From Candidatus Blackburnbacteria bacterium (GTDB lineage Bacteria; Patescibacteriota; Microgenomatia; UBA8517; UBA10165): a DNA stretch of 64,000 nucleotides. Of the stretch, positions 2,264 to 17,631 are shown piece after piece; position 1 is the first letter of the stretch; each line of letters begins with the position of its first letter. The stretch is taken from assembly GCA_016183565.1 (NCBI GenBank), contig JACPEJ010000001.1, forward strand, positions 48,196 through 112,195, in the 5' to 3' direction. Under the pieces are notes generated by a model that saw nothing but the letters and a program-made list of their open reading frames with translations, ran no database searches and was not told the DNA's origin. Both the position numbers and the translations under genes were made by a program.

Positions 2264-2278
2264 TGCAGTGCCTAAAAG

Positions 2279-3828: not shown

Positions 3829-3989
3829 TCTTAGTCACTTCACGCGTTGGAAAAGCTATCTTGGGGAGTTTCCTTACGAGGCCTTCTAATAGGGTACCAT
3901 TCGGCACCCTACTTAGTAAGGTACAGTACTGTACCTTACTCCGCAGCGAAAATAATCTGACACCTGTAGTATATCACATGTTTGTCAAG

Positions 3990-5498
3990 TTATCTATTCC
4001 TAACTACTATCCTCTTCTCTACCTTTATCTTGCCTATCATGGTTTCTTCAACAAGTTTTGTTCCTTCCTGCATTAGTTTTAGTTGTTTTTGTTGTTTTTC
4101 CAGATTGCCTCCTTCTTCAATTACTAAGAATCTAAATTTGTCACAACCAAGTGTAGGTGTTGAATAATGCTCACTTCCTGGCACATAAAGATATTTTAAT
4201 GAGGCAGGATAGTTGGAGTATTCACAGGGTACGTATTTATAAACCTTGCGGCCATACCACCAAAAAAGGTATTGATAAGGATAATCGTAGAAAGAAGGCA
4301 TATAGATATAAACGTTAAATCCATCATTTTCTGCGTTTTTGTAAACCCAATCGACAACAGAGATTTTACTGGCTAGAATTCCGGGATCATTTGAGGGATG
4401 AAGGTATTCTGTATACCTTTGTTTAAAAACAAGTAGCTGTGAAGCCATAACCAAAAAAAATATGGGTAGGCCGATTTTCCAAGGCTTGCTAAAAAGTATT
4501 AATAAGGTCGAGGTGAAAAGGAGGGGTGGCAAGTAGGGGTCGTGCCAATCTTGCCAACCTTTGTTTGCAGAGAAGAATAAATAAGAAACAGCAAAAAGGG
4601 CAAGAGTAAGGGAAACAAATTTTTTAGTAAAATCATCTTTCTTTTGCTTAAGCCAAATTAATAAAACTCCAAACAAAAAAATGCTCAAGACCAAGCTTTG
4701 TGGAATCAAAGAATCTCTGATAATTTCCAGGAATGCTTGGGTTACAGTACTAAAGTTGGTTCCAGAAAAAGTACCCAGGGCAGAACCTTGATCAAAATGC
4801 ACTAGAGTGAATACTTGTTTTGGGATTCCTGCTAAAAATAATATGGGAAAGAAAAAATTGGAAAGAATCAGAGTTTTCCATAATAATCGGCCATTTTTGA
4901 CTCCCCATAATCCAACAAGAAAATAAAAGACAAACATTGCTGCTGCACCTGCAACTTCGGTATTAAAAGCAAGTCCGATGGGGATGAAAGCCAAAAAGTA
5001 GCTTTTTTTGTTACCTTCCAGGAAGCTTATTAATAAGAGGATAAGAACCACAGAGAGAAAAACTAAAGGAAAGGGATTAAATGCCCAGCGGGAAGTGTCG
5101 TAAAAAAACCAGAATCCTTGTAGGGCAATTCCTACTAAAAGTCCGGCCTTGGGGGAAACCTTTTTTCCTATCTGCCAGATTAAAAGAGCGGTTGTAGCAA
5201 GACTTAATAAAATAACCATGAACAAAGCACCGAAGGGATGCCCTCCGAAGAGCTTGTAACCTACGGAGATAAAGTAGTACCAGCCGGGACCTGTGTAAAT
5301 TCCTGATATTCCTGTCATTGGGCCTTTAAAAAGGATTTGTCCCCTATCAAAGAGTTCTCTTGCGTGTACTGCATCGTCGCCTTGGTCGATTGTGAAGAAG
5401 AAGTTGTTGTTTTGGATGGGAATAATGCGAAGGATGTATGCAAAGATTAAGATTAAGATAAAAAGGAGCCAAAATAGTTTTTTGCTCATGGGTGTCAA
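3990..5498 (-). CDS. polytopic glycosyltransferase, ArnT/PMT-like (GT83/GT39 fold)
   Basis: 502 aa, ~12 TM helices; N-terminal DQGDDAVHARE loop typical of dolichyl/undecaprenyl-phosphate sugar transferases. Confidence 0.65.
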   Translation of the reverse strand: MTPMSKKLFWLLFILILIFAYILRIIPIQNNNFFFTIDQGDDAVHARELFDRGQILFKGPMTGISGIYTGPGWYYFISVGYKLFGGHPFGALFMVILLSLATTALLIWQIGKKVSPKAGLLVGIALQGFWFFYDTSRWAFNPFPLVFLSVVLILLLISFLEGNKKSYFLAFIPIGLAFNTEVAGAAAMFVFYFLVGLWGVKNGRLLWKTLILSNFFFPILFLAGIPKQVFTLVHFDQGSALGTFSGTNFSTVTQAFLEIIRDSLIPQSLVLSIFLFGVLLIWLKQKKDDFTKKFVSLTLALFAVSYLFFSANKGWQDWHDPYLPPLLFTSTLLILFSKPWKIGLPIFFLVMASQLLVFKQRYTEYLHPSNDPGILASKISVVDWVYKNAENDGFNVYIYMPSFYDYPYQYLFWWYGRKVYKYVPCEYSNYPASLKYLYVPGSEHYSTPTLGCDKFRFLVIEEGGNLEKQQKQLKLMQEGTKLVEETMIGKIKVEKRIVVRNR

Positions 5499-6382
5499 AA
5501 TAATTTTCGGATTACCCCGTTTATTAAGTTAGAGTTGGAAGGGATAATTGTTTCAATTTCGTATTTATTGCATATAGCTTGGGCAAATGCACTACAGGCT
5601 CTTGCACCGTGCATCCATTGGGGGTTGTCGTTCATCAAGGACTCAAGTTCGTTTAAGGTTACTTGAGAGAAAATTTCTTCGTTTCTTTTTGCAAAGTTGT
5701 TTGTTTGTATAATCGAGGGATGGTCCGAATCTTCAAAAAGCTTGTTTTTTGAAAGAGTATAAGAAGCAAGACTCATATAGGTCAATTCTCCGCCTGTGTA
5801 AAACGCAATTTTTACTTTTTCTTTTATCTCCGGTAATTTGGGAGTAACAAATTCTATAACACGGGACAGAGTGACACTTGAGTAGGTTTCGTTTATATTT
5901 GAAAATTCTGAGATTATACTTCCTACACCCAAGTCGATGTTGTAGTGGTTACTTGAATCACGGTTTACTATAACTAGTTCTGTAGATCCACCACCGATAT
6001 TGATTAACAGAATTGGTTCATTTGTTGGATATTTTCCTACAAGAGCTAGCTCTAGAAATTCACTTTCTTCCTCTGGGCTGATTAGCCTGAATTCAATGTC
6101 CCCTACTTTTTGTATTCCATCAACCAAGCTTTTAAGAACAATTGGAGAAAGTTTACGGAAAACAGCTGTTGCATAAACGCAAAATTTAACTTTAGGATGT
6201 TTACTTTTTAGTTTTCTTAAAAAGTTTAAAAGGTCGGTCTTGTTGATTTCGGATATGCCTTTTTCGCTAAACCCTTCTTTGAAGGGAATGCTTTTTGTGC
6301 AGGCCAGTTTTAGGTTTGGCTTGTTGTAGGTATAAGCTTTGACACTTGAGGAGCCGAGGTCAATAAGTAGTAACTCTTCCAT
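5495..6382 (-). CDS. Ppx/GppA-family phosphatase-like (ASKHA fold)
   Basis: N-terminal LLIDLGSSSVK and NIGGGSTELV motifs characteristic of Ppx/GppA; overlaps the upstream gene by 4 nt. Confidence 0.55.
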   Translation of the reverse strand: MEELLLIDLGSSSVKAYTYNKPNLKLACTKSIPFKEGFSEKGISEINKTDLLNFLRKLKSKHPKVKFCVYATAVFRKLSPIVLKSLVDGIQKVGDIEFRLISPEEESEFLELALVGKYPTNEPILLINIGGGSTELVIVNRDSSNHYNIDLGVGSIISEFSNINETYSSVTLSRVIEFVTPKLPEIKEKVKIAFYTGGELTYMSLASYTLSKNKLFEDSDHPSIIQTNNFAKRNEEIFSQVTLNELESLMNDNPQWMHGARACSAFAQAICNKYEIETIIPSNSNLINGVIRKLF

Positions 6383-6435
6383 TTTTTTCTATTGTAGCAA
6401 CTTGACAAGTAATACTGCGTATGTAAAACTGATTT

Positions 6436-6750
6436 ATTGCGAAAGAAACCCGAACTTATAGAGATAGAGCCACCTATCTAATTGGGGCAGTAGCAAGACG
6501 AAGAAGAAAACTAAAGGAGCTTGCAATTCTTCACAAGAGAGGTGGTTGCATATTTTGTGGTTACTCAAAATATAATGGTGCAACTAGATTTCCATCACAC
6601 AGATCCAACGCACAAGGAGTTTAATTTATCAGTTAGAGGACTCACGCGAAGTTGGGAAAAAATTAAAAAAGAAATCGAAAAGTGTATACTCGTGTGTTAA
6701 AATTGTCACAGAGAAATTCATGCCGGGATAGTGGAACACCCTACTTCGTT
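6436..6750 (+). pseudogene. degenerate HNH endonuclease gene remnant (frameshifts and stops)
   Basis: frame 1 gives ...RGGCIFCGYSKYNG...HRSN followed by stop; another frame gives ILVC(stop)NCHREIHAG; together these form a CxxC...N...CH..H HNH signature broken across frames. Confidence 0.45.
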
Positions 6751-6809
6751 TCTAAAAAGGACCAGACAAATCAGGGCTAAAATGATATAATATCTCTGCT
6801 CGTTTACAT

Positions 6810-7123
6810 TCCCCGGTAGCTCAGTGGTAGAGCGGAAAGCTGTGTTAGCAGCCTTTGAGGGAAACCTCGGAGTGAAAAGTGGGTGAATTCAGGGAACGTC
6901 CTGAGCTTGTCGAAGGATAACCCTGAGCCAAGGGATGTACCAGACGGTACATCCAAGGTGCAGAGACTAGATGATTACATCCAAAGTCGAGCTTGCCTCG
7001 ACATGAGCGCCCACCACCTAAAGCCAGCTCTTGGTCACGGTGAAGAGATAGTCCATGCCGAAGAATTATTAAATGATTCTGAAAGTAACTTTAAGGTCGT
7101 AGGTTCGAATCCTACCCGGGGAG
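6810..7123 (+). tRNA. tRNA-Asn(GUU) interrupted by a group I intron between anticodon positions 35 and 36
   Basis: 7-bp acceptor stem TCCCCGG/CCGGGGA, D-arm GCTC-AGTGGTA-GAGC, T-arm GTAGG-TTCGAAT-CCTAC; exon junction gives anticodon loop CUGUUAA; no encoded CCA. Confidence 0.75.
6844..7085 (+). ncRNA. group I self-splicing intron (242 nt) within the tRNA anticodon loop
   Basis: R element CAGAGACTA (6961-6969) and S element AGAGATAGTCC (7044-7054) forming P7; P1 hairpin GCUGU/guua/GCAGC with U·G at the 5' splice site; terminal G at 7085. Confidence 0.75.
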
Positions 7124-7130
7124 CAAGATA

Positions 7131-7162
7131 GGACGCTTAAGGCACAAAGCGTCCTTTTTTGT
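7131..7162 (+). terminator. rho-independent terminator after the tRNA
   Basis: GGACGCTT-aaggcacaa-AGCGTCC stem-loop followed by TTTTTTG. Confidence 0.6.
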
Positions 7163-7336
7163 TGAATTGTCGGGCAATTCTTGATGTTCGAATTTTCCAT
7201 TTTCAAAATTTCCCAAATTTATATCTGGTAAACATCATAAATCTCTTCATAAAAAGTAATTGAAAAATTGGCAATTATTTTGTATGCTAGTGTCATCAAT
7301 TGGTAAGTAGTGTACTTCCACCAAAGGCGGACAAGT

Positions 7337-7504
7337 ATGGAAAAACTCTTAAAACTCAGAGAAGCGGCAGAGATACTGAGCGTTCACCCCAACACCCTTC
7401 GGCTTTGGGATCGCAAGGGTATTTTGGTGGCGGTACGCATTGGGGAGAAGAAAATCAGACGCTATCGTCTTGAGGATATTAAGAGGTTTATCAAGAAAAA
7501 ATAA
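7337..7504 (+). CDS. small HTH DNA-binding protein (MerR/excisionase-like)
   Basis: LREAAEILSVHPNTLRLWDRKGIL helix-turn-helix; AAGGCGG RBS-like motif 6 nt upstream of the ATG at 7337. Confidence 0.6.
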   Translation: MEKLLKLREAAEILSVHPNTLRLWDRKGILVAVRIGEKKIRRYRLEDIKRFIKKK

Positions 7505-7505
7505 T

Positions 7506-8336
7506 ATGACCAAAAAACAACAAAAAATTCAAGTTAAAGGTATCGAAATCGTAACCTTTAAAAAGAATGAAAACGACTATATTTCCCTAACTGATATTGC
7601 TCGGTATAAGGACAAAGATCGGAGTGATTACATTTTACAAAACTGGATGAGAACTAGGAGTGCGATTGAATATCTCGGTTTATGGGAAAAACTTTATAAC
7701 CCTAATTTTAATTCCATCGAATTCGATGGGTTTAGAAAACAGTCTGGTTTGAACAGTTTTGTGCTTACTCCTAAGAAATGGATTACTCAAACCAACGCCA
7801 TTGGGATCGTCTCAAAGGCAGGAAGATACGGAGGCACCTATGCTCACTTAGATATTGCTTATGAGTTCGCTTCGTGGATTAGTGCTGAATTTAAACTGTT
7901 TCTAATCAAGGAGTTTCAAAGACTCAAGCAGGAAGAAAACTTGCGACTAGAGCAGGGCTGGGATATCAAGCGTATGCTGGCTAAGATCAATTACAAAATT
8001 CACACTGATGCAGTTAAAGCTCACTTAATTCCTGCCAATATTTCAAAGAACAGGATTAACATGGTTTATGCCAATGAAGCAGATGTACTTAACGTAGCTT
8101 TATTTGGCAAGACGGCTAAGGATTGGCGTGATGAGAATAAGAGTAAGGATGGCAACATCCGCGATTACGCTGATGTTACCCAACTAGTCGTGCTAGCCAA
8201 CCTGGAAGGTATTAATGCAGAGCTGATCCGTCAGGGACTATCTCAACCGGATCGTTTATTACAACTTAATCAAATTGCCATATCCCAGATGCAATCTTTG
8301 CTGGGAAGTAGCAGTGTGAAGAAGTTGAAAGCCTAA
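7506..8336 (+). CDS. KilA-N domain protein
   Basis: N-terminal IEIVTFKKNENDYISLTDIARYK... matches the KilA-N DNA-binding domain; typical of phage/mobile regions. Confidence 0.65.
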   Translation: MTKKQQKIQVKGIEIVTFKKNENDYISLTDIARYKDKDRSDYILQNWMRTRSAIEYLGLWEKLYNPNFNSIEFDGFRKQSGLNSFVLTPKKWITQTNAIGIVSKAGRYGGTYAHLDIAYEFASWISAEFKLFLIKEFQRLKQEENLRLEQGWDIKRMLAKINYKIHTDAVKAHLIPANISKNRINMVYANEADVLNVALFGKTAKDWRDENKSKDGNIRDYADVTQLVVLANLEGINAELIRQGLSQPDRLLQLNQIAISQMQSLLGSSSVKKLKA

Positions 8337-8395
8337 AATTCAACTGTCCGGAAAAATGTCCGGAAAAACCGGATGGTTCAAAAATAAGAATATAA

Positions 8396-9829
8396 ATGAC
8401 TATGAATAACCAAATTAAATGTCCCTACTGCAACAAGTCGTTTGAGCCAACTGACGCTTATAAGCATGAACTAGAAGAAAAGTTACTTAGTGAAACTCAA
8501 CAAAAGCATCAGGAGGAAATCGATAAATTAAAGCTTGAGAAGCAAGAGCTTAGTATTGCCAAGGATAAAGAGTTAGAAGAAGCCAAGAAGCAGGTGGCTG
8601 AAACCGTACGCACAGAGGTTGAGAAAGAGATCAAACAAGAGTTACAAGACAAGATGGATGCGACTCAGGAACAAGCTGAAAATCAGGCGAAACGAAACAC
8701 CAAACTGCAGGAACAACTTGAAGAACAAACTAAGCTTGTGGGTGAAATGAAGAGTGAAAAAGATAAACTCCGCTTAGCACATGAGCAGGAGTTGGAAGAA
8801 ACGAAAAAGAAAACAACAGAAGCAGTTCGCCAGGAAGCCGAAAATAAGATAAGGAAAGAATTCGAAGTAAAGGTGGCATCAAGCCAAGAGGAGGCACAAG
8901 AGAGAGAAAAGCAAAATCAAGAGCTTCAAAAACAAACTGTTGAGCTCATGAAGCAACTGAGAGAATCCAAAGACGCAGAGGGTAAACTGAAAATTCAATT
9001 TGAGAGGATGTTGCTTGAAGAACAAGACAAAATCAAACAGGACGCGAAAAAGGAAACTGAAGATGCCTGGAATTTGAAAATGGCGGAAAAAGACAAACAA
9101 CTAGAAGATGCTCGCAAAGTTAATGTGGAATTACAAAGAAAACTTGAACAAAAATCGCAACAACTCCAAGGTGAAGTGCAAGAACTAAAGTTGGAAGAAC
9201 AACTCAAAGGTGAATTTCTCTTCGATGAAATAAGTGAAGTTCCCAAGGGTAGGGGCGGTGCAGATACAATCCAGGTGGTAAGAACCCAGTCAGGAGTTGT
9301 CTGTGGAACGATAGTCTGGGAGTCAAAACGGGCCCAAAGATGGGATCAAAAATGGATACAAAAGCTTCTTGATGATCAGCGTGCGGTTAAAGGAGATCTG
9401 GCTGTGTTAGTTTCCAACGTTTTCCCTGATTCTGTTAAAGGGTTTGGGATGGTTGAGAGTATTTTTGTTACAGATCTACCATCTGCACTTAGTGTCGCCT
9501 ACTTATTAAGGCAACAGCTGATGAAGGTACATTCAACCCAGATTGCCAACAGTGACAAGACAACGAAGGCAGAGATTGTTTATAACTATTTGATCAGTAA
9601 CGAATTTAAACAACGGATTGAGGTTTGGGTTGAGTATTTCAGAGAGAGGCAGGAAAAAATAAATAAAGAAAGAGTCTATTTCATCAAAAAATGGCAGGAA
9701 GAAGAAAAAAGTATTCATAAGGTTATCGCTACAACTTCTGGGATTTATGGTGATTTACAGGGATTGATCGGAAATGCTTTACCTAAGGTAGGTTATTTAG
9801 AGTTGCCGGATTCTGTAGAAGAAAAATAA
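8396..9829 (+). CDS. zinc-ribbon plus long coiled-coil protein with DUF2130-like C-terminal domain (possible PD-(D/E)xK-like fold)
   Basis: CPYCNKSF at the N-terminus, ~250 aa of E/K/Q-rich coiled coil, C-terminal GGADTIQVV...GTIVWESKR; 12-nt gap to the downstream helicase gene. Confidence 0.5.
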   Translation: MTMNNQIKCPYCNKSFEPTDAYKHELEEKLLSETQQKHQEEIDKLKLEKQELSIAKDKELEEAKKQVAETVRTEVEKEIKQELQDKMDATQEQAENQAKRNTKLQEQLEEQTKLVGEMKSEKDKLRLAHEQELEETKKKTTEAVRQEAENKIRKEFEVKVASSQEEAQEREKQNQELQKQTVELMKQLRESKDAEGKLKIQFERMLLEEQDKIKQDAKKETEDAWNLKMAEKDKQLEDARKVNVELQRKLEQKSQQLQGEVQELKLEEQLKGEFLFDEISEVPKGRGGADTIQVVRTQSGVVCGTIVWESKRAQRWDQKWIQKLLDDQRAVKGDLAVLVSNVFPDSVKGFGMVESIFVTDLPSALSVAYLLRQQLMKVHSTQIANSDKTTKAEIVYNYLISNEFKQRIEVWVEYFRERQEKINKERVYFIKKWQEEEKSIHKVIATTSGIYGDLQGLIGNALPKVGYLELPDSVEEK

Positions 9830-9841
9830 TTAAAATAGACA

Positions 9842-12800
9842 TTGAATATGAGCAATTCTTCACCACCACTCCAGACAAAATTACTCCAAAGAGCAAAAAA
9901 TAGCGATGAGTTTAATTTGTATGTGGCGGGTATAGAATGGGATCTTATTGAGCCAATTGTCATTGAAGACCGTGACGATATGCACTCCGAAAAGAAGTGG
10001 AGTGAGTTGTTGGAGCCATATTACCACCAAGTTACGAACCTGATTACATTTTGCCGTAGATTGCCAGTTACTTTATTAGCTGATGATGTTGGTTTAGGTA
10101 AAACAATTAGTGCTGGATTGGTGACAAGTGAATTAATGGCTCGTGGCAGAGTAACAAAAATACTTATTGTTTGTCCTAAATTATTAATGTTTCAGTGGAA
10201 GGAAGAGTTAGAAACTAAGTTTGGTATATCTTCCGTTATTGCTACTGGCAGAGACTTAATTAAAGCTACTCCACCAGGAGAGTTGGGAGCAGTGATAACT
10301 ACTTATGATTCTGCCCGTCTCCATCTCGATAAAATTTCTGACGTTGGTTACGAAATGTTGATTTTAGATGAAGCTCATAAGCTGCGAAATTTGTATGGTA
10401 TTGACCCGCCTCCTAAAAGAGCGGTTCGTTTTAAGCAAGCACTAGAAGATCGATTATTCAAATATGTTCTCATGCTTACTGCTACGCCGATTCAAAATAG
10501 GCTGTGGGATATTTATTCTCTAGTTGACTTACTGACTACTGCAAGGGGGCACGAAAATCCTTTCGGGAATCCGGGGATTTTTGCCCGCAGATTTATTGCG
10601 GACGCCAGGACAAAAGCCCGTCAATTAGTGCCATCAATGAAAGATGAGTTTCGGTCAATTGTCTATGGCTATATGTCACGGGTGAGACGAGCAGACGCAA
10701 ATCTTTATTTTCCTGAAAGAACTGTGCAGCTTCACAAGGTCACACCGACCCCTGACGAATTGAAGTTAATTGACATCATTGCTGAGCCAATTCAAAAGCT
10801 GAATCGTCTAGCACAAATCTCAATCCTCCAAGCACTCACAAGTAGTCCTCATGCTTTGTCAGCTCAATTAAAAAATATGGCGCGCAATGGAACCATCCCG
10901 GAGTCGTTATCATTGGAGGTTAGCGCTGTCGTTGAAAATATGAATGGCTCGGCAAAACTAAAAGGCCTCAGTACTCTTATTGACAAACTTGAAACTGAAA
11001 GACCGAATGATTGGAGATTAGTTATTTTTACTGGTCGTCGTGAAACTCAAACCACAATTGAGGAATTTTTGGGGAAACGAGGAATTACTTGCGGGCTAAT
11101 CAATGGAGATTCTGGGTTAAGGAACCAAGAAACTATAACTCAGTTTAAACAAAAACCTCCGGACATTCATGTAATTGTCTCAACAGAAGCTGGAGCTGAG
11201 GGTATAAATCTTCAAGCTGCTAATGTACTGGCTAACTACGATTTGCCGTGGAATCCAATGATTGTTGAACAAAGAGTAGGTCGGATTCAGAGGTTGGCCT
11301 CCGAGCATGCAAAGGTAAGCATTTTCAATATTATCTTGTCAAATACATTTGAAGAATACATCGTTGCTAGGCTTATGGAAAAACTCCAAATGGCCTCACA
11401 GGCAATTGGTGATGTTGAAGCAATGCTTGAAGCATCCGGGCTGGACGAGGATGAAAATGGATCGGTTGGTTTTGAGGAAATGGTAAGGCGACTTGTTATC
11501 GATTCTTTGGCAGGTAAAGATGTAGAAGTAGCAACAAAAATCGCTAGTGAAAGCATAACGAAGGCTAAGACTAAACTTAAGGAGGAACAAAAAAACATCA
11601 GTTCTATGTTAGGTACTATGGGGGATGCTTCTGAGTTTGGTCCTCGATGCCCAAGTTTACCGAAGCTAAATCACTCCATGGATATACGTGATTTTGTTTT
11701 GACTGCTCAAGAAGGCTTTGGTGCAAAAATAACTCCCCAATCTAAGGGAATATATTTTTGTGAACTTAATGATGAAAAAGAATCAATATATTTTGAGGAA
11801 AAAGATAACGGTCGAATAGACGGGGTGTTGTACGCGCAAGGTACATCTGCCTTTGAACGTTTGGTAAGTAAAGTAATTAGTAAACGACTTCACGATGTTG
11901 AAGATCTGGACAAAGATCTTGAATTAAACACGCAAGAAACCATACGAGGATGGGTCAGCAGTTTTAATGGTGCATTTAAAGAAACAGAAACAAACAAAGT
12001 CTGGAACTGTTTTGAAGGGACAGCTCTTATCAGGGTTCGTTCAACTGTAGCGCATGATAGTTATGAACGATTAGTTAGCATCGAATGCTTGTCCAAAGAT
12101 CATAAGATAGAAGTCAGACCAAAGAATCTCAAGCCCTTGGGAGAATTTATTGATGGACACTTAGGAGTTGGTGTGGTCCCAGACCAGTTGGTTGAAAAGG
12201 CAATGCTTGATGAAGGGATAGATGAATTTTGTCGTTTTTATAAAGAGAGAATGGTTCAGGAAGTGGTTGCTGCAGGCAGTGATTTACGCAAGAAAAAGAA
12301 ACTAGAAGATGAATTTACACCAAGAGTGGAAATGAGCTTAGTAGGATTGGTTGGCACGATGCACCGCCAATTACAAGTCGATGTTGCATACGATATTGAT
12401 TCCATTGCTGAGTATAAGAGCTCAATACTTGTTTTGCCTTTTAAAAAGGAGGTAATTGAAGCGCCAGTTTTGTACAAATGTGAATCAACAGGAGAGGAAG
12501 CCCCTCATGATTGTCTGGGCATATGTGATATTAGTGGACGTAGAGTACTACGTCACTTACTTGTAAGTTCTGAAGAAAGCGGAAGGAAAGCTCTGCCTGA
12601 ATATATTAGAACATGCGCTCTTTCAGGCAAAAAGGTTCTAAGTGATGAAATCGAAAAGTCAGCAATCACAGGCGAATCCGTTACAAGTTCTCTACTTAAA
12701 ACTTCAGCTTTAAGTGGCAAACGTGCAGAACTAAAGTTCTTTGGAACTTGTGAATTCACCTCTGCAGAAGTTCTCGAGGATGAATTGGCAATAAGCCAGA

Positions 12801-13552
12801 TTTCAGGAAAAAAATACAGAATGGATGAGCAACTTCAGTCTGTAGTTTCTAAGAAGACTGGTCATAAACAAGAATTTATTTTTTGTGCTGAGACGGGACA
12901 ACCTCTGTTGTCAACGGAGACAGAGACATGTGAGCTAACTAAAAAGGTTGTTATTCCCGGCCTACTTGAAACGTGTGAAGTATCTAAGAAAAAAGTTCTA
13001 CCTGCAAAGCTAGAAAAATCAGCACTTTCAGGCAAAAAAGCACTCAAGAAATACTTTGTATCAAGTAGTATTTCAGATGCACGACTACTTGAAGGAGAAG
13101 CAATTAGGTCAGTTGATGGCAATTTCTGTTCTCCTTTGGAGGCTAAAAGGTGTTCGTGGAGTGATCGAGAATGTCATTCGGATGATTTAAAGATTTGTAA
13201 TTTAACAGGTCTTCCTATTTATCTAGAGTATGTGACTAGGAAGAAACCGAGTCGATTAGAGCCACTTGTTGACCTCTTGGGAAATATCAGAAGGACGGCT
13301 GACGAGGGGGAGACTTGGGTAGCAGTCGCAGAGAAAGCTTCAACAATTCTCAAGATGAAAGGTTGTAAGGTGGAGTCTGCAGTTCTATCTCCAGATAAGG
13401 GAAAATTGGCGGTATGTATAGAGGTAAAGACTTGGTTGGGTTTGAAAGTTCGCTATGCGGGGTTGGTTTTTCTGATAAAAGATGAAGAAGTCATTGGGAA
13501 GATATCTTTAGGTAGACGCGAAAAAGGAAACTGGTTAATGGAGAATTCTTAA
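9842..13552 (+). CDS. SNF2-family helicase (DEAH ATPase core) with ~450-aa C-terminal extension containing tandem SGKK-type repeats
   Basis: motif I LLADDVGLGKTISAG, motif II LILDEAHKLRN, TATPIQNRL, helicase-C QRVGRIQRLAS; C-terminal repeats SALSGKK/AITGESV/QISGKK and Cys-rich tail. Confidence 0.85.
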   Translation: MNMSNSSPPLQTKLLQRAKNSDEFNLYVAGIEWDLIEPIVIEDRDDMHSEKKWSELLEPYYHQVTNLITFCRRLPVTLLADDVGLGKTISAGLVTSELMARGRVTKILIVCPKLLMFQWKEELETKFGISSVIATGRDLIKATPPGELGAVITTYDSARLHLDKISDVGYEMLILDEAHKLRNLYGIDPPPKRAVRFKQALEDRLFKYVLMLTATPIQNRLWDIYSLVDLLTTARGHENPFGNPGIFARRFIADARTKARQLVPSMKDEFRSIVYGYMSRVRRADANLYFPERTVQLHKVTPTPDELKLIDIIAEPIQKLNRLAQISILQALTSSPHALSAQLKNMARNGTIPESLSLEVSAVVENMNGSAKLKGLSTLIDKLETERPNDWRLVIFTGRRETQTTIEEFLGKRGITCGLINGDSGLRNQETITQFKQKPPDIHVIVSTEAGAEGINLQAANVLANYDLPWNPMIVEQRVGRIQRLASEHAKVSIFNIILSNTFEEYIVARLMEKLQMASQAIGDVEAMLEASGLDEDENGSVGFEEMVRRLVIDSLAGKDVEVATKIASESITKAKTKLKEEQKNISSMLGTMGDASEFGPRCPSLPKLNHSMDIRDFVLTAQEGFGAKITPQSKGIYFCELNDEKESIYFEEKDNGRIDGVLYAQGTSAFERLVSKVISKRLHDVEDLDKDLELNTQETIRGWVSSFNGAFKETETNKVWNCFEGTALIRVRSTVAHDSYERLVSIECLSKDHKIEVRPKNLKPLGEFIDGHLGVGVVPDQLVEKAMLDEGIDEFCRFYKERMVQEVVAAGSDLRKKKKLEDEFTPRVEMSLVGLVGTMHRQLQVDVAYDIDSIAEYKSSILVLPFKKEVIEAPVLYKCESTGEEAPHDCLGICDISGRRVLRHLLVSSEESGRKALPEYIRTCALSGKKVLSDEIEKSAITGESVTSSLLKTSALSGKRAELKFFGTCEFTSAEVLEDELAISQISGKKYRMDEQLQSVVSKKTGHKQEFIFCAETGQPLLSTETETCELTKKVVIPGLLETCEVSKKKVLPAKLEKSALSGKKALKKYFVSSSISDARLLEGEAIRSVDGNFCSPLEAKRCSWSDRECHSDDLKICNLTGLPIYLEYVTRKKPSRLEPLVDLLGNIRRTADEGETWVAVAEKASTILKMKGCKVESAVLSPDKGKLAVCIEVKTWLGLKVRYAGLVFLIKDEEVIGKISLGRREKGNWLMENS

Positions 13553-13563
13553 AATTAAAAAAT

Positions 13564-14229
13564 ATGCAAAACTCATATCTTCATTCTAGGTTAAGTTCAA
13601 TTCAGAAACAGTTAATTGCTCATCACGAAGGAGGAAGCCCTAGCTCTACCTCTAAAGGAAGAGAGCGAGAGGATTTTATCAATAGTTATCTTGAAAAGAT
13701 AATGCCCCCAGTGTTTCGCTTTGGTTCTGGAGAGGCAATTGATGCGAATGATAAAGTTACAGGTCAACTTGATTTGGTTGTTGAGTATCCATTGTTTCCT
13801 AGCCTTCACCAACCAGGTGGAAAACCCAGACTGTATGTTGCCGAAAGCATCGCAGCAGTCATAGAAGTAAAATCTGATTTGAGTACCCAGTGGGAAGAAG
13901 TTCTTAGTACAGCTAAAGCAGTAAAAGATCTTTACCGCGGTTGGGGAGGAAATATCTTGATTGGTGACGAAAGATTCGCAAAAACTATTCCAGTGTTTGC
14001 AGTAGGTTATGAAGGATGGGCAAAGGAAGAGACGGTGCAATCAAAGCTGATTGATAGCGGCGTTGACGCAATTTTGGTAATAGACCCTGGTATTTTTGTT
14101 GCAAATGAATTGTTTAGTCTAAAGAAAAGTTTTCAGGGGCCTTGGGCTCTTTGGGGATTTTTTACTTGTTTATATTTAGCTTTTGATTCAATAAAAGTTT
14201 TACAAGCTGATTTAGAGAATTACGCCTAG
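13564..14229 (+). CDS. PD-(D/E)xK nuclease-like protein (Hjc/restriction-endonuclease-like core)
   Basis: GQLDLVVEY ... AAVIEVKSD arrangement (D..E.K); 11 nt after the helicase stop, consistent with an operon. Confidence 0.5.
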   Translation: MQNSYLHSRLSSIQKQLIAHHEGGSPSSTSKGREREDFINSYLEKIMPPVFRFGSGEAIDANDKVTGQLDLVVEYPLFPSLHQPGGKPRLYVAESIAAVIEVKSDLSTQWEEVLSTAKAVKDLYRGWGGNILIGDERFAKTIPVFAVGYEGWAKEETVQSKLIDSGVDAILVIDPGIFVANELFSLKKSFQGPWALWGFFTCLYLAFDSIKVLQADLENYA

Positions 14230-14260
14230 GTAATTTAAGAAAAATTGGTCAGGAATCGGT

Positions 14261-14385
14261 TGACCTCCTTCACCGTCCACTCCGCCTACGCCAAGGCTTC
14301 GGCGGACACGTCCGGATACTCCCCTCCAGAGGCGGGCGGGCAGCTCGCTGACCCAATCAATTCGTCCAAAATCATACCATCGTTC
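14261..14385. repeat. copy A of a ~120-nt conserved noncoding element (ccttcaccgtccac...gtccggatactcc...cccaatcaattcgtcc...ccatcgttcgagcca)
   Basis: direct-sequence match to 16809-16922; the conserved blocks flank a central hairpin that differs in sequence but not position between copies. Confidence 0.7.
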
Positions 14386-14760
14386 GAGCCAAGAAATTAG
14401 ATACGAACTCGGATTTTGAAGATGAGTTCGTATTGTCTTCTTTGGCTCCCGAATTAAAACCTTCGCAAACCCCGAAGGAGAACAAGTTCCCTACGGGGCA
14501 TGCTTTTGAAATCATTTTGCCAAATCTGATACACAAATCCAAAACCCTCCTTCGCGTAAAGCTATGAAAGGGCAAAGAGCGAAATCTGAAATGATGCGCC
14601 CCGCCACTATTTTTCTGGGGCAAAGGAGGCGGGGCGACGGACTCGTGAGCGCGCAGGAGCGAGGTCTCGGGGAGGCCCTCCAGAGGCGGGTAAAAATCCG
14701 CGCGGGCTTCGGCTTTCTTTTTTGAAAAAATCGGCGGATACAAATTGAGAAAAGATTAGA
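14386..14760. ncRNA. GC-rich noncoding region contiguous with repeat copy A; candidate large structured RNA of unknown identity
   Basis: ~500 nt without a convincing ORF; local GC is far above the surroundings; internal repeat cctccagaggcggg at about 14321 and 14680; GC hairpins. Confidence 0.3.
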
Positions 14761-14824
14761 TTCATGTTAGTCTAGTTGTGAGAGTTAAGTTCAACGCTCA
14801 TACTTATACTATCATACAAAAAGC

Positions 14825-15220
14825 ATGGAGCAAACTGTGCAAGGTGCGATGAATAGGGCAAAAAATGCTTTCAAGGACTGCGACTTTTCTTTTGGATTAG
14901 AGAGTGGGCTTATAGAAGTTCCAAACACGAAAAGTGGATATATGGATATTACAATGTGTGCCATATATGATGGCAAAAATTTTCACTTAGGCGGGTCTTC
15001 TGCTTTTGAATATCCAAAATCTATGATTGATTTGGTTTTTAGCAAAGATTATGACATTGATGAGGCGGCAAAAGAAGCCGGGTTTTCCCATGATGAAAAT
15101 ATTGGCGAAAGAGAAGGAATGATAGGTGCTCTTACGAAGGGACGGCTAAATCGAAAGGGATATAGCAAGCAGGCAGTAATAACTGCTCTTATACACCTTC
15201 TTAATCCAGAGCATTATTAA
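14825..15220 (+). CDS. YjjX/DUF84-like inosine/xanthosine triphosphatase family protein
   Basis: C-terminal GEREGMIGALTKGRLNRKGYSKQAVITAL resembles the YjjX GRKEGAIGVFTAGKLTR...QAVILAL motif. Confidence 0.5.
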   Translation: MEQTVQGAMNRAKNAFKDCDFSFGLESGLIEVPNTKSGYMDITMCAIYDGKNFHLGGSSAFEYPKSMIDLVFSKDYDIDEAAKEAGFSHDENIGEREGMIGALTKGRLNRKGYSKQAVITALIHLLNPEHY

Positions 15221-15229
15221 AATAAATTT

Positions 15230-15619
15230 ATGAACTACAAAGGCGTAATAATCGAGGAAAGTTTAGAGAATAAAGGCATTCTAAAAGATGTCAAAATTTT
15301 AGAGACAAAGGTTGAAGAAGTTGTAGAGGAACACAAAACTCCTTGGATAAAACAATGGACTTTACATACCGTTGAAATTCCAGAAAATCAAGCAAAAGAT
15401 GTCGCAGAAAAATTAAGCAAAATACTAGACTCTGAACATAACTGGTATGCTGATTTCAAAAATGATTCTCACCATTACATCATTTTCCGCGACAAAGTTT
15501 TTTATATTGACCGAAAAAGTAAGGAACAATACGACGAAGCGAAACGCTATGGTATTTCTCTCGAAATACCAGAATATCAAGTAGATTTTGCTCCCGACGA
15601 TAAAATTTGGGAAAGATAA
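15230..15619 (+). CDS. hypothetical protein
   Basis: 129-aa ORF with no recognisable motif. Confidence 0.4.
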   Translation: MNYKGVIIEESLENKGILKDVKILETKVEEVVEEHKTPWIKQWTLHTVEIPENQAKDVAEKLSKILDSEHNWYADFKNDSHHYIIFRDKVFYIDRKSKEQYDEAKRYGISLEIPEYQVDFAPDDKIWER

Positions 15620-15621
15620 TT

Positions 15622-15897
15622 ATGACAACAATTCATAAAAAAGTTTGGCGAGAATATTTTGACAAAATTGTTTCCGGCAAGAAAAAGTTGGAATTACGCC
15701 TTGCTGATTTTGAAGTAAATGAGGGCGACACTTTAGTTTTGGAGGAATGGGACAAGGATAAAAAAGATTATACTGGACGAAAGATTGAAGTTGTCGCCAC
15801 CTATATTCTCAAAACCAAAGGTCAAACTTTTTGGTCGCCGGAGGAAGTTGAGAAATATGGTTTCCAAATTATTCAATTTGAGCCAAAGGAAAAATAA
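15622..15897 (+). CDS. ASCH-like/DUF3850 small protein
   Basis: KKVWREYFDKIVSGKKKLELRLADFEVNEGDTLVLEEW matches the DUF3850/ASCH pattern; the ATG at 15622 is preferred over the TTG at 15607. Confidence 0.5.
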   Translation: MTTIHKKVWREYFDKIVSGKKKLELRLADFEVNEGDTLVLEEWDKDKKDYTGRKIEVVATYILKTKGQTFWSPEEVEKYGFQIIQFEPKEK

Positions 15898-15899
15898 TT

Positions 15900-16205
15900 A
15901 TGGACATCAAGCAAAAAACGGCAGAAACCTACGACAAAATTGCTTCCGGCTACAGCGCAGGACATTTTGCTCATTTTTGGATTGAAGAATTTGATTTTTA
16001 CAAAAACATTACTGACGGTAAAAAAGTCATTGACCTTGGTTGCGGAGCCGGACGAGACGCCGCCGTTTTTGTAGAAAATGGTTTTGATTACACTGGCATA
16101 GATGCTTCGGAGGCAATGCTAAAGGTAGCAAGTGAGAGAGTGGCAAAGGGGAAATTCCAAAAAATGGATTTCAGCAGAACCATTTTCCAAGTAGCTTGTA
16201 GGTAA
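15900..16205 (+). pseudogene. truncated class I SAM-dependent methyltransferase (N-terminal half only)
   Basis: motif I VIDLGCGAGRD is present, but the ORF stops after 101 aa, before the post-I motifs. Confidence 0.5.
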
Positions 16206-16236
16206 CTGTAGCTAAATGTAGGTAATTGCAGGTAAA
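16196..16236. repeat. short tandem repeat tgtaggtaaYtgYag (x3)
   Basis: tgtaggtaactgtagctaaatgtaggtaattgcaggtaa. Confidence 0.6.
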
Positions 16237-16266
16237 AGTTTTCACTGCCACTGAAAACTTTTTTGC
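16235..16266. terminator. bidirectional hairpin terminator between convergent genes
   Basis: GTTTTCA-ctgccac-TGAAAAC, followed by TTTTTT on the plus strand and AAAA upstream on the minus strand. Confidence 0.55.
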
Positions 16267-16274
16267 TAACCCTT

Positions 16275-16745
16275 TTAATTCAACACCACAATCGCCGCAT
16301 TTAGTATGGTAGCAAAGCTGACCCACAAGAGGTACGGCACCAGTAAATAAAATGCTAGTGTTGATAACGGATAAAACTTTTTCATTGTTACCACAATAAG
16401 TACCCACATCGCCACAATTACGATCAATCCCAAAAACGGTGCTCGCAGTCCAAAGAAAACTGGTGACCAGATAAAGTTAAGTCCCAGTTGGGCCAGAAAA
16501 AACAAACCTGCAGTCTTCATCTTCTTTTTCTTCCACCCCTGCTTCCAAATCAAATAAAAAGCCACGCCCATCAGAAAGTACAAAAGCGTCCAAACCGGTC
16601 CAAAGATCCAATTAGGGGGAGCAAAGAAAGGCTTATTCAAGGTGGCGTACCAAATAGGGATAGCAGAGATGGTAAAAGGAGTTCCTAAGAATCCAACTAA
16701 TTCACAGCCAATCACGGAAACAATAAGTTTGGGCAAGTCTTTCAT
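16275..16745 (-). CDS. tspO: TspO/MBR tryptophan-rich sensory protein
   Basis: LNKPFFAPPNWIFGPVWTLLYFLMGVAFYLIW signature; 5 TM helices. Confidence 0.85.
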   Translation of the reverse strand: MKDLPKLIVSVIGCELVGFLGTPFTISAIPIWYATLNKPFFAPPNWIFGPVWTLLYFLMGVAFYLIWKQGWKKKKMKTAGLFFLAQLGLNFIWSPVFFGLRAPFLGLIVIVAMWVLIVVTMKKFYPLSTLAFYLLVPYLLWVSFATILNAAIVVLN

Positions 16746-16808
16746 CTGCCTTTAGTATGAAACAAATTCGGCAAGAGAGCAATCAATATTGCAGAAACCT
16801 CCCTACTT

Positions 16809-16922
16809 CCTTCACCGTCCACCCCCGCCTGCAACGCTATGCGTCGCATTGCGGGCAGGTCCGGATACTCCAACTCCGTTACCCAATCAATTCGTCCGAA
16901 TTCTTCCCATCGTTCGAGCCAG
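16809..16922. repeat. copy B of the ~120-nt conserved noncoding element (see 14261-14385)
   Basis: same conserved blocks as copy A, with a different central hairpin (CCTGC..CGCTATGCG-uc-GCATTGCG..GCAGG). Confidence 0.7.
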
Positions 16923-17025
16923 ATGGGACGGGAGGGCAACAAAGAGTCCTTTTGTCCCGTAACATTCCGGGTTTTAGTGTTAAAATCCTCACGGGAAAAT
17001 GCCTCTGTTTTGGTATAATTGGAGT

Positions 17026-17631
17026 ATGAGGAAGTGGCTAATTTTACTCATCTTTATAATTATCACGCTATTTCTATCTCCGGCTTTGGTTGCAGCTCAA
17101 ACGAACACAGAAAGTGGTGATCACACAGCGCGTGAGGAACAAGAAGGTAAAGAAATTTGGGGTAAGTTACAAGCAAAACAACTTGAGTGTAACAACCTTA
17201 CTGATGAAAACTACGCAGTGCTTGGTGAATATTTTATGGGTCAATCAATCGGTAACACAGAACGACATGCAGCCATGAATCAGATGATGATAAGTATGGT
17301 GGGTGAGCAGGGAGAGGAACAGATGCATGTTGTTATGGGTAAAAGAAATAGTGGTTGTGATACAGGGACGAAGGGAGGTGGAAATCCTATGATGGGATAT
17401 GGTGGTTGGGGTAATATGATGGGGTGGGGATTTGGAATCTTAGGCTGGCTCTTTATGCTTCTGTTTTGGCTGCTTATAATTCTTGGGGTGGTTGCTCTTG
17501 TCCGCTATTTAGGCGGTTCAGGTAAAACTGCTAAAGATGATAAAACTCCTGTGGAGATTCTCAAAGAGCGTTATGCCCGTGGAGAAATTGATAAAAAAGA
17601 GTTTGAAGAGAAGAAAAAAGATTTAGACTAA
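17026..17631 (+). CDS. secreted/membrane protein with C-terminal SHOCT domain
   Basis: signal/TM segment WLILLIFIIITLFLSPALVAA; C-terminal ILKERYARGEIDKKEFEEKKKDL SHOCT motif; TGgTATAAT -10 and GGAG just upstream. Confidence 0.55.
   Translation: MRKWLILLIFIIITLFLSPALVAAQTNTESGDHTAREEQEGKEIWGKLQAKQLECNNLTDENYAVLGEYFMGQSIGNTERHAAMNQMMISMVGEQGEEQMHVVMGKRNSGCDTGTKGGGNPMMGYGGWGNMMGWGFGILGWLFMLLFWLLIILGVVALVRYLGGSGKTAKDDKTPVEILKERYARGEIDKKEFEEKKKDLD

What the first reader, a model, noticed from the sequence alone, without database searches (positions are those of the whole stretch)
7337..14229. tRNA-adjacent island: HTH and KilA-N, then a DUF2130-like / SNF2 helicase / PD-(D/E)xK nuclease operon as a candidate undescribed defence system
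Directly 3' of a tRNA-Asn gene, a classic integration hotspot, lie a small HTH protein, a KilA-N domain protein, and a tightly packed three-gene operon with 12-nt and 11-nt gaps. Gene 1 is a zinc-ribbon protein with ~250 aa of coiled coil and a DUF2130-like C-terminal domain; that domain shows a D...E-x-K arrangement (GGADTIQVV ... IVWESKR). Gene 2 is a 1236-aa SNF2 helicase with an intact DEAH ATPase core and a ~450-aa C-terminal extension built from 15-aa tandem repeats (SALSGKK / AITGES / QISGKK) plus a Cys-rich tail. Gene 3 is a 221-aa protein with an Hjc/restriction-like PD-(D/E)xK core (QLDLVVEY ... AVIEVKS). Helicase-plus-nuclease pairs beside phage-type genes and a tRNA are the usual signature of anti-phage defence. 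This particular combination, including the SGKK-repeat extension, does not match any named system I recognise (DISARM DrmD, Hachiman, Gabija, Mokosh and Shedu differ in components), but I cannot survey the full defence-system catalogue from memory.
Basis: partly seen in the sequence, partly recalled or inferred. Interest (0 to 1): 0.85.

Follow-up and report, generated by a model that had tools for sequence, protein, structure and literature searches.

The report
Mosaic defence island of swappable genes
Next to a tRNA gene in a tiny uncultured bacterium lies a five-gene block of probable anti-virus genes; relatives show that each gene is swapped independently, so it is not one fixed three-gene machine, but it contains a widespread, unstudied helicase family with an unusual repeat domain.

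Summary
The proposed DUF2130/SNF2/DUF6602 three-gene system is not a conserved unit. None of 80 genomic loci with the same helicase family carries DUF6602, and only 7 carry DUF2130. One relative (L081) has DUF2130 and DUF6602 with an unrelated 142-aa gene in place of the helicase. Another (L001) keeps the HTH and the helicase but swaps KilA-N for RhuM and DUF6602 for a RecB-like nuclease. Recombination breakpoints fall at gene boundaries.

Some of the architecture does recur. In 23 of 80 loci the helicase sits directly beside a Cas4/RecB-like nuclease. DUF2130 repeatedly sits directly beside defence NTPases, including a second SNF2 subfamily.

Two modules are already catalogued: KilA-N matches PADLOC candidate PDC-S22, and DUF6602 is the domain of the published 'Damona' defence.

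The helicase family is uncharacterised. Its roughly 700-aa C-terminal region, including about 17 fifteen-residue repeats, has no structural relative in the PDB.

Verdict: a mosaic defence island, with two real leads (the helicase family and DUF2130). Interest is moderate.

The parts
6810..7124 (+). tRNA-Asn(GTT) interrupted by a 242-nt group I intron in the anticodon loop; forms the left flank of the island
   Evidence: Rfam RF00028 at 6832-7073, 61.3 bits. A terminator-like hairpin lies at 7130-7155.
7260..7288 (+). Promoter-like site upstream of the HTH gene; homology with the L001 island starts here (7259)
   Evidence: TTGAAA-17-TATGCT. blastn homology to L001 begins at 7259. This is a consensus match only.
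7337..7504 (+). Small MerR/HTH_17 DNA-binding protein (55 aa), probable regulator of the array
   Evidence: Pfam HTH_17 E 1.4e-9 and PADLOC mad1 E 5e-11. 93% aa identity to the first gene of the L001 island.
7506..8336 (+). KilA-N domain protein, matching PADLOC single-gene phage-defence candidate PDC-S22
   Evidence: Pfam KilA-N E 4.9e-22. PADLOC PDC-S22 E 5.9e-133 over the full length. In L001 this slot holds RhuM, which matches PDC-S05.
8396..9829 (+). DUF2130 protein: N-terminal CxxC knuckle, long helical/coiled-coil region, C-terminal PD-(D/E)xK nuclease-like domain
   Evidence: Pfam DUF2130 E 9e-58. D290, E309 and K311 are conserved. AF2 model of aa 225-477 has pLDDT 82; its best Foldseek hits are mostly PD-(D/E)xK nucleases, all weak. 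No PADLOC model matches.
9842..13552 (+). SNF2-family ATPase (1236 aa; 1234 aa from the ATG at 9848) of an uncharacterised, cross-phylum family
   Evidence: Pfam SNF2-rel_dom and Helicase_C. 4366 homologs, the best 120 each about 1210-1365 aa and 49-100% identical over nearly the full length. Walker A GLGKT, DEAH and motif VI are invariant. Below all NCBIfam family cut-offs.
10049..11461 (+). SNF2 ATPase core (aa ~70-540)
   Evidence: This is the only part with PDB sequence relatives, such as RapA and Sulfolobus Rad54-like (E about 1e-29).
12458..13222 (+). Array of about 17 tandem 15-aa beta-hairpin repeats (aa 873-1127), consensus LxxxLxx[C/S]x[LIV][S/T]G[K/R][K/R]x
   Evidence: Register shown. 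AF2 pLDDT is about 90 across the array. No significant PDB fold match. The module is found in 481 clusters, in proteins up to about 2100 aa with 5-12 matched stretches, indicating expanded arrays.
13564..14229 (+). DUF6602 PD-(D/E)xK endonuclease-like protein (221 aa), NucC-like and Damona-like
   Evidence: Pfam DUF6602 E 2e-15. PADLOC PD_DExK 1.6e-18 and NucC 2.9e-11. PDB Serratia NucC E 2.7e-4. D70, E74, E101 and K103 are invariant.
14247..14391 (.). Repeat element at the right edge of the island; a second copy lies at 16792-16921
   Evidence: Direct repeats found. The same element follows the last island gene in L001 and L081. There are only two copies in the window, against 0.13 expected by chance. 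No Rfam match.

Best explanation
The region 7259-14391 is a roughly 7-kb defence-type island beside tRNA-Asn in a Candidatus Blackburnbacteria (CPR) genome. Its five genes are probably transcribed together, but they are individually exchangeable modules rather than one obligate system:
1. A small HTH regulator plus a KilA-N protein (PADLOC candidate PDC-S22).
2. A DUF2130 coiled-coil PD-(D/E)xK nuclease that in other genomes sits directly beside many different defence NTPases.
3. An SNF2 dsDNA translocase of an uncharacterised family.
4. A DUF6602 NucC/Damona-like endonuclease.

Proposed mechanism (inferred, not shown): the SNF2 motor hydrolyses ATP to translocate along invading double-stranded DNA. 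Its basic 15-aa repeat array provides DNA or target recognition. An adjacent nuclease does the cutting. In relatives that nuclease is usually a Cas4/RecB-like plus RNase-H-like enzyme; here DUF6602 occupies that slot by non-orthologous replacement. DUF2130 and KilA-N add further, separable layers.

Shown here: gene content, conserved catalytic residues, module-by-module exchange between relatives, and the recurrent helicase-nuclease and DUF2130-NTPase adjacencies. Inferred: anti-phage function, cooperation between the helicase and DUF6602, and the role of the repeats.
For: - Cassette exchange with breakpoints within about 25 nt of gene boundaries. Compared with L001, only promoter+HTH, the first 14 codons of DUF2130, the SNF2 gene and the boundary repeat are shared. 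Compared with L081, only DUF2130, DUF6602 and the repeat are shared.
- 0 of 80 helicase loci have DUF6602, 7 of 80 have DUF2130, and 23 of 80 have a DUF2779 or TM0106-type nuclease directly adjacent on the same strand, on either side.
- Close DUF2130 homologs sit directly after AAA_13 (PDC-S06), OLD-like ATPases or an SF1 helicase-nuclease. Across 80 metagenomic loci, DUF2130's neighbours include SNF2 helicases, AAA_13, SIR2 and AAA_15/21; in L141 it follows BrxC.
- DUF6602 homologs are stand-alone in mobile or R-M contexts, and Damona carries the DUF6602 domain.
- ATPase and nuclease catalytic residues are conserved.
- The helicase family has a patchy cross-phylum distribution at about 60% identity.
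- Recombinases, OLD, R-M and UvrD genes recur near the helicase.
Against: - No experiment exists for any of these genes.
- Many helicase loci, especially alphaproteobacterial ones, have no recognisable partner and have housekeeping neighbours.
- The helicase family is absent from the phage, plasmid and IMG/VR collections, so mobility is inferred only from phylogenetic patchiness.
- There is no integrase and no tRNA-derived direct repeat at this island.
- Tight spacing is normal in compact CPR genomes and does not prove functional coupling.
- PDC-S22 is itself an untested candidate.
- Neighbour gene calls in the loci were made with a simple longest-ORF rule.
Confidence: 0.55

Rival explanations
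1. Pure hotspot packing. Every gene is a fully autonomous single-gene module (KilA-N, DUF2130, SNF2 and DUF6602 each act alone), and adjacency reflects only accumulation at a recombination-prone site. There is no helicase-nuclease cooperation.
For: - Each gene occurs without the others.
- About 70% of helicase loci show no adjacent nuclease.
- Damona is described as a cassette carrying the DUF6602 domain.
- PDC-S22, S05 and S06 are defined as single-gene candidates.
Against: - The helicase lacks any nuclease or other effector domain of its own. The 'SPD..EVK' motif in its tail is not conserved.
- In 23 of 80 loci a nuclease gene abuts the helicase gene on the same strand, mostly with gaps of -28 to +28 nt, across several phyla.
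- DUF2130 often overlaps the neighbouring NTPase gene by a few bases.
Confidence: 0.22
2. One reading: DUF2130, SNF2 and DUF6602 form one dedicated, previously undescribed three-component defence system that needs all three proteins.
For: - 12-nt and 11-nt gaps, same strand.
- A DUF2130 + SNF2 + nuclease arrangement recurs with other nucleases in L001, L027 and L052.
- A second SNF2 subfamily forms SNF2-DUF2130-SIR2 and SNF2-DUF2130-AAA_13 operons.
Against: - 0 of 80 helicase loci have DUF6602 and 73 of 80 lack DUF2130.
- L081 replaces the helicase precisely with an unrelated 142-aa ORF while keeping both flanking genes.
- L001 swaps the nuclease and the DUF2130 gene body.
- Only 1 of 80 DUF2130 loci has a weak DUF6602-like neighbour.
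Confidence: 0.08
3. Not immunity at all. The SNF2 protein and the neighbouring nucleases serve DNA repair or recombination, or the maintenance of a decayed integrative element, and the defence-like neighbours are incidental.
For: - The closest solved relatives of the ATPase core are RapA and Rad54-type remodellers.
- Cas4/RecB-like nucleases also act in repair.
- Many helicase loci have housekeeping neighbours.
- The family is absent from phage and plasmid collections.
- An RmuC-like gene is near the helicase in 3 loci; that identification was made by reading the sequence, not by a family search.
Against: - The family is rare and patchy across phyla at about 60% identity rather than vertically conserved.
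- It co-occurs with OLD, R-M, UvrD-type and recombinase genes.
- In this window it is sandwiched between PADLOC- or literature-listed defence candidates.
- It is subject to cassette swapping.
Confidence: 0.12

Closest known systems
Hma system, HmaA (Swi2/Snf2 helicase with fused C-terminal PD-(D/E)xK nickase; anti-T4; PMC11232893)
   Same: An SNF2 motor combined with a PD-(D/E)xK nuclease, lying in a locus described as a hotspot for inserted defence genes. The PADLOC HmaA model hits the ATPase core (153 bits).
   Different: In this window the nuclease is a separate gene of another family. There is no HmaB methylase and no HmaC ATPase. The C-terminal 700 aa are unrelated and show no conserved nuclease site.
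Zorya ZorD and DISARM DrmD (SNF2 helicases of multi-gene defence systems)
   Same: SNF2 ATPase core; these models give the best PADLOC and NCBIfam hits.
   Different: Scores are far below the family cut-offs (DrmD 200 vs 610 and 171 vs 950; ZorD 55 vs 1500). The window has no ZorABC and no DrmA/B/C/MI genes. By contrast, a different SNF2 next to DUF2130 in L105 and L121 is DrmD-like at about 635 bits.
Damona (integron cassette with a DUF6602 domain, anti-phage; bioRxiv 10.1101/2024.07.02.601686)
   Same: A DUF6602 domain with matches to the Cas PD_DExK and CBASS small endonuclease (NucC) models, exactly as reported for Damona.
   Different: Here the gene sits in an operon-like array in a CPR genome, not in an integron cassette.
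NucC (cA3-activated endonuclease of CBASS and type III CRISPR)
   Same: Restriction-endonuclease-like N-terminal core. PADLOC NucC E 2.9e-11 and PDB 7zgv E 2.7e-4 over aa 12-126.
   Different: Only the N-terminal half matches. No cyclase or CRISPR genes were seen near the island, though the rest of the 64-kb window was not scanned for them. The cA3-binding features were not tested.
PADLOC phage-defence candidates PDC-S22, PDC-S05 and PDC-S06 (untested, found by 'guilt-by-embedding' in BREX, DISARM and type I R-M loci; bioRxiv 10.1101/2024.01.29.577857)
   Same: KilA-N matches PDC-S22 over its full length. RhuM (L001) matches PDC-S05 and AAA_13 (L081, L105, L141) matches PDC-S06.
   Different: These are candidates, not validated systems. 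DUF2130, which is embedded in the same kinds of loci, has no PADLOC model.
Shield ShdA / RmuC-type nucleases (coiled coil plus PD-(D/E)xK domain)
   Same: DUF2130 has the same general build: a long helical region followed by a PD-(D/E)xK domain.
   Different: Neither the Pfam nor the PADLOC scan listed any family other than DUF2130 for it. It has a CxxC knuckle rather than a membrane anchor. The resemblance is architectural only.

Membership tests
DISARM (DrmD) | Helicase reaches the NCBIfam DrmD equivalog cut-off | tested here: not met
   200 bits vs cut-off 610, and 171 bits vs cut-off 950.
DISARM (DrmD) | Accompanying drmA, drmB (DUF1998), drmC (PLD) and methylase genes | tested here: not met
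   Pfam and PADLOC scans of the genes from 32 to 17631 found none.
Zorya (ZorD) | ZorD equivalog score; fused Mrr-like nuclease; zorABC genes | tested here: not met
   55 bits vs cut-off 1500. No nuclease fold or conserved site in the C-terminal region. No ZorABC genes.
Hma (HmaA) | SNF2 with a fused C-terminal PD-(D/E)xK nickase domain, plus HmaB and HmaC | tested here: not met
RapA (RNA polymerase recycling SNF2) | NCBIfam RapA equivalog cut-off | tested here: not met
   112 bits vs cut-off 576. PDB similarity is limited to the ATPase lobes.
Damona / DUF6602 nucleases | DUF6602 domain above the Pfam gathering score, with an intact D-E-K catalytic set | tested here: met
   56.9 bits vs cut-off 27. 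D70, E101 and K103 are invariant in 30 homologs.
Damona / DUF6602 nucleases | Direct sequence relationship to the tested Damona protein, and anti-phage activity | not testable with these tools
   The Damona sequence is not held here, and no experiment is possible. Only the preprint's domain description was used.
NucC (CBASS / type III CRISPR effector) | Full-length NucC fold with a cA3 pocket, and an associated cyclase | tested here: inconclusive
   Only aa 11-126 match NucC models. No cyclase was seen among the genes examined (positions 32-17631). The structure of this protein was not predicted.
PADLOC PDC-S22 (KilA-N candidate) | Full-length match to the PDC-S22 profile | tested here: met
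   E 5.9e-133, aa 3-276 vs profile positions 2-274 of 281.
Pfam DUF2130 (PD-(D/E)xK superfamily) | Domain above the gathering score, with the D...(D/E)xK motif | tested here: met
   196 bits vs cut-off 26.7. D290, E309 and K311 are conserved. Listed as a PD-(D/E)xK family in PMC3424549. Most of the top (weak) fold matches are PD-(D/E)xK nucleases.
tRNA-targeted integrative island | Integrase gene, and a direct repeat of the tRNA 3' end at the far boundary | tested here: not met
   No integrase among the flanking genes. No tRNA-derived repeat of 16 nt or more in 6700-17200. The related L001 island shows no DNA match to this tRNA gene beside it.

The most novel reading that the evidence does not exclude
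The roughly 1233-aa SNF2 helicase with its variable-length array of 15-aa basic beta-hairpin repeats is the core of a widespread, undescribed immune system. It works with interchangeable nucleases encoded next to it (TM0106/DUF2779 Cas4-like, or DUF6602 here), and the repeat array acts as the target sensor. Separately, DUF2130 is a general nuclease partner that plugs into many defence NTPases (SNF2, AAA_13, OLD, and BREX- or DISARM-like loci) and has been missed by current catalogues.
Probability: 0.35. Interest if true: 0.65.

Novelty: new variant of a known kind. Interest (0 to 1): 0.45.

Why it matters
If the helicase family is defensive, it adds a cross-phylum SNF2-plus-nuclease system whose recognition domain (a repeat array that expands from about 17 units to several times that) has no structural precedent in the PDB. 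That could reveal a new way of sensing foreign DNA.

DUF2130 would be a common effector or adaptor that has so far gone uncatalogued in BREX-, DISARM- and R-M-associated loci.

The locus is also an unusually clean example of gene-by-gene cassette exchange in CPR bacteria, whose immune repertoires are poorly known. It is a warning that tight operon-like spacing in compact genomes should not be read as an obligate multi-gene system.

Tried and rejected
- tblastn alone missed divergent DUF2130 genes such as the one in L001. I replaced it with HMM searches.
- I considered that the helicase tail 'SPD...EVK' might be a fused PD-(D/E)xK site. I rejected this because D and K are not conserved (the family consensus is EVR) and fold searches give only weak nuclease hits.
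- I tested whether DUF2130 and DUF6602 are homologous. hhalign probability is 0.2%, so I rejected it.
- I looked for att-like repeats of the tRNA and for an integrase, and found none.
- I looked for the helicase family in IMG/VR, INPHARED phages and PLSDB plasmids, and found no matches.
- An Rfam scan of the boundary repeat and the 14.2-17.0 kb region gave nothing credible.
- The first metagenome scan with alignment A5 failed because the alignment was too divergent. I repeated it with the closer set A6.
- An exhaustive in-silico splicing scan for the tRNA was uninformative; ARAGORN with introns allowed solved it.
- Literature searches for TM0106 and for group I introns in tRNA-Asn returned nothing relevant.


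Full report
**Observation**

The five ORFs exist as described, on the + strand:

| Gene | Coordinates | Evidence |
|---|---|---|
| HTH | 7337-7504 | Pfam HTH_17/MerR |
| KilA-N | 7506-8336 | Pfam KilA-N, E 5e-22 |
| DUF2130 | 8396-9829 | Pfam DUF2130, E 9e-58 |
| SNF2 | 9842-13552 | Pfam SNF2-rel_dom + Helicase_C |
| DUF6602 | 13564-14229 | Pfam DUF6602, E 2e-15 |

The intergenic gaps are 1, 59, 12 and 11 nt. The SNF2 ORF starts at a TTG; the public record of the identical protein starts two codons later at the ATG at 9848.

Default ARAGORN reports no tRNA anywhere in the window. With introns allowed, ARAGORN calls tRNA-Asn(GTT) at 6810-7124 with a 242-nt intron in the anticodon loop.

GC content is about 0.40 throughout, so the region is not compositionally distinct. 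The identical helicase is annotated in a 686-kb contig of Candidatus Blackburnbacteria, a CPR bacterium.

**Is the trio a unit? View from the helicase**

The helicase family has 4366 hits. The best 120 are each about 1210-1365 aa and 49-100% identical over nearly the full length. The named hits come from Patescibacteria, Elusimicrobia, Nitrospirota and Proteobacteria, and the genome loci add Acidobacteriota among others.

I fetched 80 genomic loci carrying it, including cultured Bradyrhizobium, Rhodopseudomonas, Bosea and Arenimonas. The neighbour counts are:

| Neighbour | Loci out of 80 |
|---|---|
| DUF6602 | 0 |
| DUF2130 within 6 kb | 7 |
| ~500-aa nuclease directly adjacent, same strand, either side | 23 |
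| Same nuclease type nearby on the opposite strand | 2 more |

The recurrent neighbour is a DUF2779 protein or a TM0106-family RecB/Cas4-like nuclease fused to an RNase_H_2 domain (TIGR03491, 250 bits against a cut-off of 97). Other recurrent neighbours are serine and tyrosine recombinases, OLD-family ATPases, a type III methylase and UvrD-type helicases. Many loci, mainly alphaproteobacterial, show only housekeeping neighbours.

**The two closest relatives show module-by-module exchange**

L001 (Paceibacterota; helicase 87% and HTH 93% aa identical) reads HTH, RhuM, a divergent DUF2130 (22% aa identity), SNF2, then a TM0106-type nuclease.

L081 reads AAA_13 ATPase, DUF2130 (82% aa), an unrelated 142-aa ORF, then DUF6602 (98% aa by P0121). 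The helicase is replaced precisely.

| Comparison | Shared window segments | Content |
|---|---|---|
| Window vs L001 | 7259-7508 | promoter + HTH |
| | 8382-8437 | RBS + first 14 codons of DUF2130 |
| | 9847-13569 | SNF2, 84.5% nt |
| | 14341-14388 | boundary repeat |
| Window vs L081 | 8399-9819 | DUF2130, 78% nt |
| | 13542-14293 | DUF6602, 92% nt |
| | 14345-14391 | boundary repeat |

Every breakpoint lies within about 25 nt of a gene boundary. This is direct evidence that each gene is an exchangeable cassette. It argues against an obligate three-gene machine.

**View from the other two genes**

DUF6602 homologs (94 found) are stand-alone in their other contexts. They occur with a 245-aa gene near an SF1 helicase-PLD protein (L083-85), in a conjugative-element region (L171), in a Rhizobium mobile region (L172), and beside a type IIG R-M gene (L173).

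Close DUF2130 homologs sit directly after, and often overlap, diverse defence NTPase genes:
- AAA_13 ATPase, matching PADLOC PDC-S06, after a type ISP R-M gene (L086).
- OLD-like ATPases (L087, L090).
- An SF1 helicase-nuclease resembling PDC-S37, MkoC and Hhe (L088).

In 80 DUF2130-centred metagenomic loci, the commonest upstream neighbours are helicases (7 of 65, five of them SNF2). The commonest downstream neighbours are AAA_13 (8 of 70), SIR2_2 (6) and AAA_15/21 (5).

A second SNF2 subfamily of about 960 aa scores about 635 bits on a PADLOC DrmD model. It forms overlapping SNF2-DUF2130-SIR2 operons (L121, L142, L116) and SNF2-DUF2130-AAA_13 operons (L105, L138). In L141, DUF2130 follows BrxC.

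So the general architecture of an SNF2 helicase, DUF2130 and a variable effector recurs. This particular trio does not.

**What the proteins are**

SNF2:
- Walker A (GLGKT), DEAH and motif VI are invariant.
- Only aa ~53-536 resemble solved structures by sequence (RapA and Rad54-like).
- An AF2 model of aa 530-1236 is confident (pLDDT 84.9). It shows a helical linker, two alpha+beta domains with long hairpins, about 17 beta-hairpin repeats of 15 aa, and a C-terminal alpha+beta cap.
- The repeats are in perfect register at aa 873-1127, with consensus LxxxLxx[C/S]x[LIV][S/T]G[K/R][K/R]x.
- The repeat module is found in 481 clusters at 50% identity. In the listed proteins long enough to carry the ATPase, the match mostly begins around residue 850-900 or further along, as in this protein; the shorter hits are probably gene fragments. 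Relatives reach about 2100 aa and give 5-12 matched stretches, which indicates expanded arrays.
- No conserved nuclease site exists in the protein.
- It fails the NCBIfam cut-offs of DrmD, DpdE, ZorD and RapA by wide margins.

DUF2130:
- It has a CxxC knuckle, a long helical region and a C-terminal domain with D290, E309 and K311 conserved.
- The AF2 model (pLDDT 82) best matches PD-(D/E)xK nucleases: Bax1, the SPARDA nuclease domain, DdmD, BstEII and MspJI. E-values are weak, but probability reaches 0.99.
- It is listed as a PD-(D/E)xK family of unknown function (PMC3424549).
- It has no PADLOC model.

DUF6602:
- D70, E74, E101 and K103 are invariant.
- It is NucC-like over its N-terminal half.
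- DUF6602 is the domain of Damona, an anti-phage cassette from the Vibrio cholerae integron.

KilA-N matches PADLOC PDC-S22 over its full length. The PDCs are 145 untested candidates found by 'guilt-by-embedding' in BREX, DISARM and type I R-M loci.

**Island boundaries**

- A terminator-like hairpin (7130-7155) follows the tRNA. A promoter-like site (7260-7288) sits exactly where homology to L001 starts.
- On the right, a repeat element of roughly 60 to 145 nt (14247-14391) directly follows the last gene in the window, L001 and L081. It has a second copy at 16792-16921.
- There is no integrase and no tRNA-derived direct repeat. The flanks are ordinary cellular genes: Ppx/GppA, a PMT-like glycosyltransferase, NTPase_I-T and TspO.
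- The helicase's C-terminal region has no match in 72,556 plasmids or 50,697 phage records, and no relative of the helicase was confirmed in IMG/VR.

**Interpretation**

The best-supported reading is a mosaic defence-type island built of separable modules.

The helicase carries no effector domain of its own, and in 29% of loci a nuclease gene abuts it. I therefore infer that it works as an ATP-driven dsDNA translocase that cooperates with an adjacent nuclease. Here DUF6602 occupies the slot usually held by a Cas4/RecB-like enzyme. This is functionally analogous to the fused SNF2-nuclease proteins ZorD and HmaA (HmaA is an SNF2 with a C-terminal PD-(D/E)xK nickase active against T4; PMC11232893).

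A role for the basic repeat array in DNA or target recognition is speculation. No step of the mechanism has been tested experimentally.

**Rivals**

| Explanation | Confidence |
|---|---|
| Mosaic island with helicase-nuclease cooperation (best) | 0.55 |
| Pure hotspot packing of autonomous genes | 0.22 |
| A repair or recombination role, not immunity | 0.12 |

**Novelty and score**

The exact trio is not a new system, and two of the five genes are already catalogued candidates. What remains new:
- An uncharacterised cross-phylum SNF2 family with a repeat domain that has no structural precedent in the PDB and a preferred nuclease partner.
- DUF2130 as a frequent gene embedded next to defence NTPases and missing from PADLOC v2.
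- A clean case of cassette-level shuffling in CPR genomes.

This is a new variant of a known kind (helicase-nuclease defence modules in islands). Interest is 0.45.

Noticed in passing
window 6810-7124: tRNA-Asn(GTT) carries a 242-nt group I intron in its anticodon loop. Default ARAGORN therefore reports no tRNA in the whole 64-kb window. A literature search found no report of a group I intron in a bacterial tRNA-Asn.
   Followed up: partly
window 14247-14391 and 16792-16921; L001 15255-15313; L081 8750-8842: A conserved repeat element directly follows the last island gene in three genomes with different cargo, and occurs twice in the window. The window copies carry extra GC-rich inserts. The reverse strand of its core reads WLERW(Y/E)(D/E)FGRIDWV.ELEYP. 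It has no Rfam match. It could be an island boundary or recombination site, or a gene remnant.
   Followed up: partly
L121, L142, L116 (SNF2-DUF2130-SIR2); L105, L138 (SNF2-DUF2130-AAA_13): A different SNF2 of about 960 aa (about 635 bits on a PADLOC DrmD model) forms overlapping operons with DUF2130 and then a SIR2 or AAA_13 gene. This looks like a recurrent candidate system. I did not test whether these loci are DISARM.
   Followed up: partly
L141 2251-9315: DUF2130 sits directly after a full-length BREX BrxC gene and before an AAA_13 (PDC-S06-like) gene. It is therefore embedded in a BREX-type locus, yet PADLOC v2 has no DUF2130 model.
   Followed up: no
window 14825-15220 and 15900-16205: Between the two repeat copies, the NTPase_I-T gene lacks the first ~40 positions of its domain, and the 101-aa methyltransferase ORF covers only the first part of methyltransferase profiles. 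This suggests gene decay in this segment. The 14400-14824 stretch has no convincing ORF.
   Followed up: no
L070-L079 and one search hits (proteins of 1350-2100 aa): Relatives of the helicase have greatly expanded 15-aa repeat arrays (5-12 matched stretches). Repeat number is therefore a variable trait of the family.
   Followed up: partly
phage records BK070121-BK070128 (Helicobacter heilmannii): The only phage-collection matches to the DUF2130 C-terminal domain are seven predicted Helicobacter heilmannii phage records (36% identity), each annotated as a hypothetical protein.
   Followed up: no
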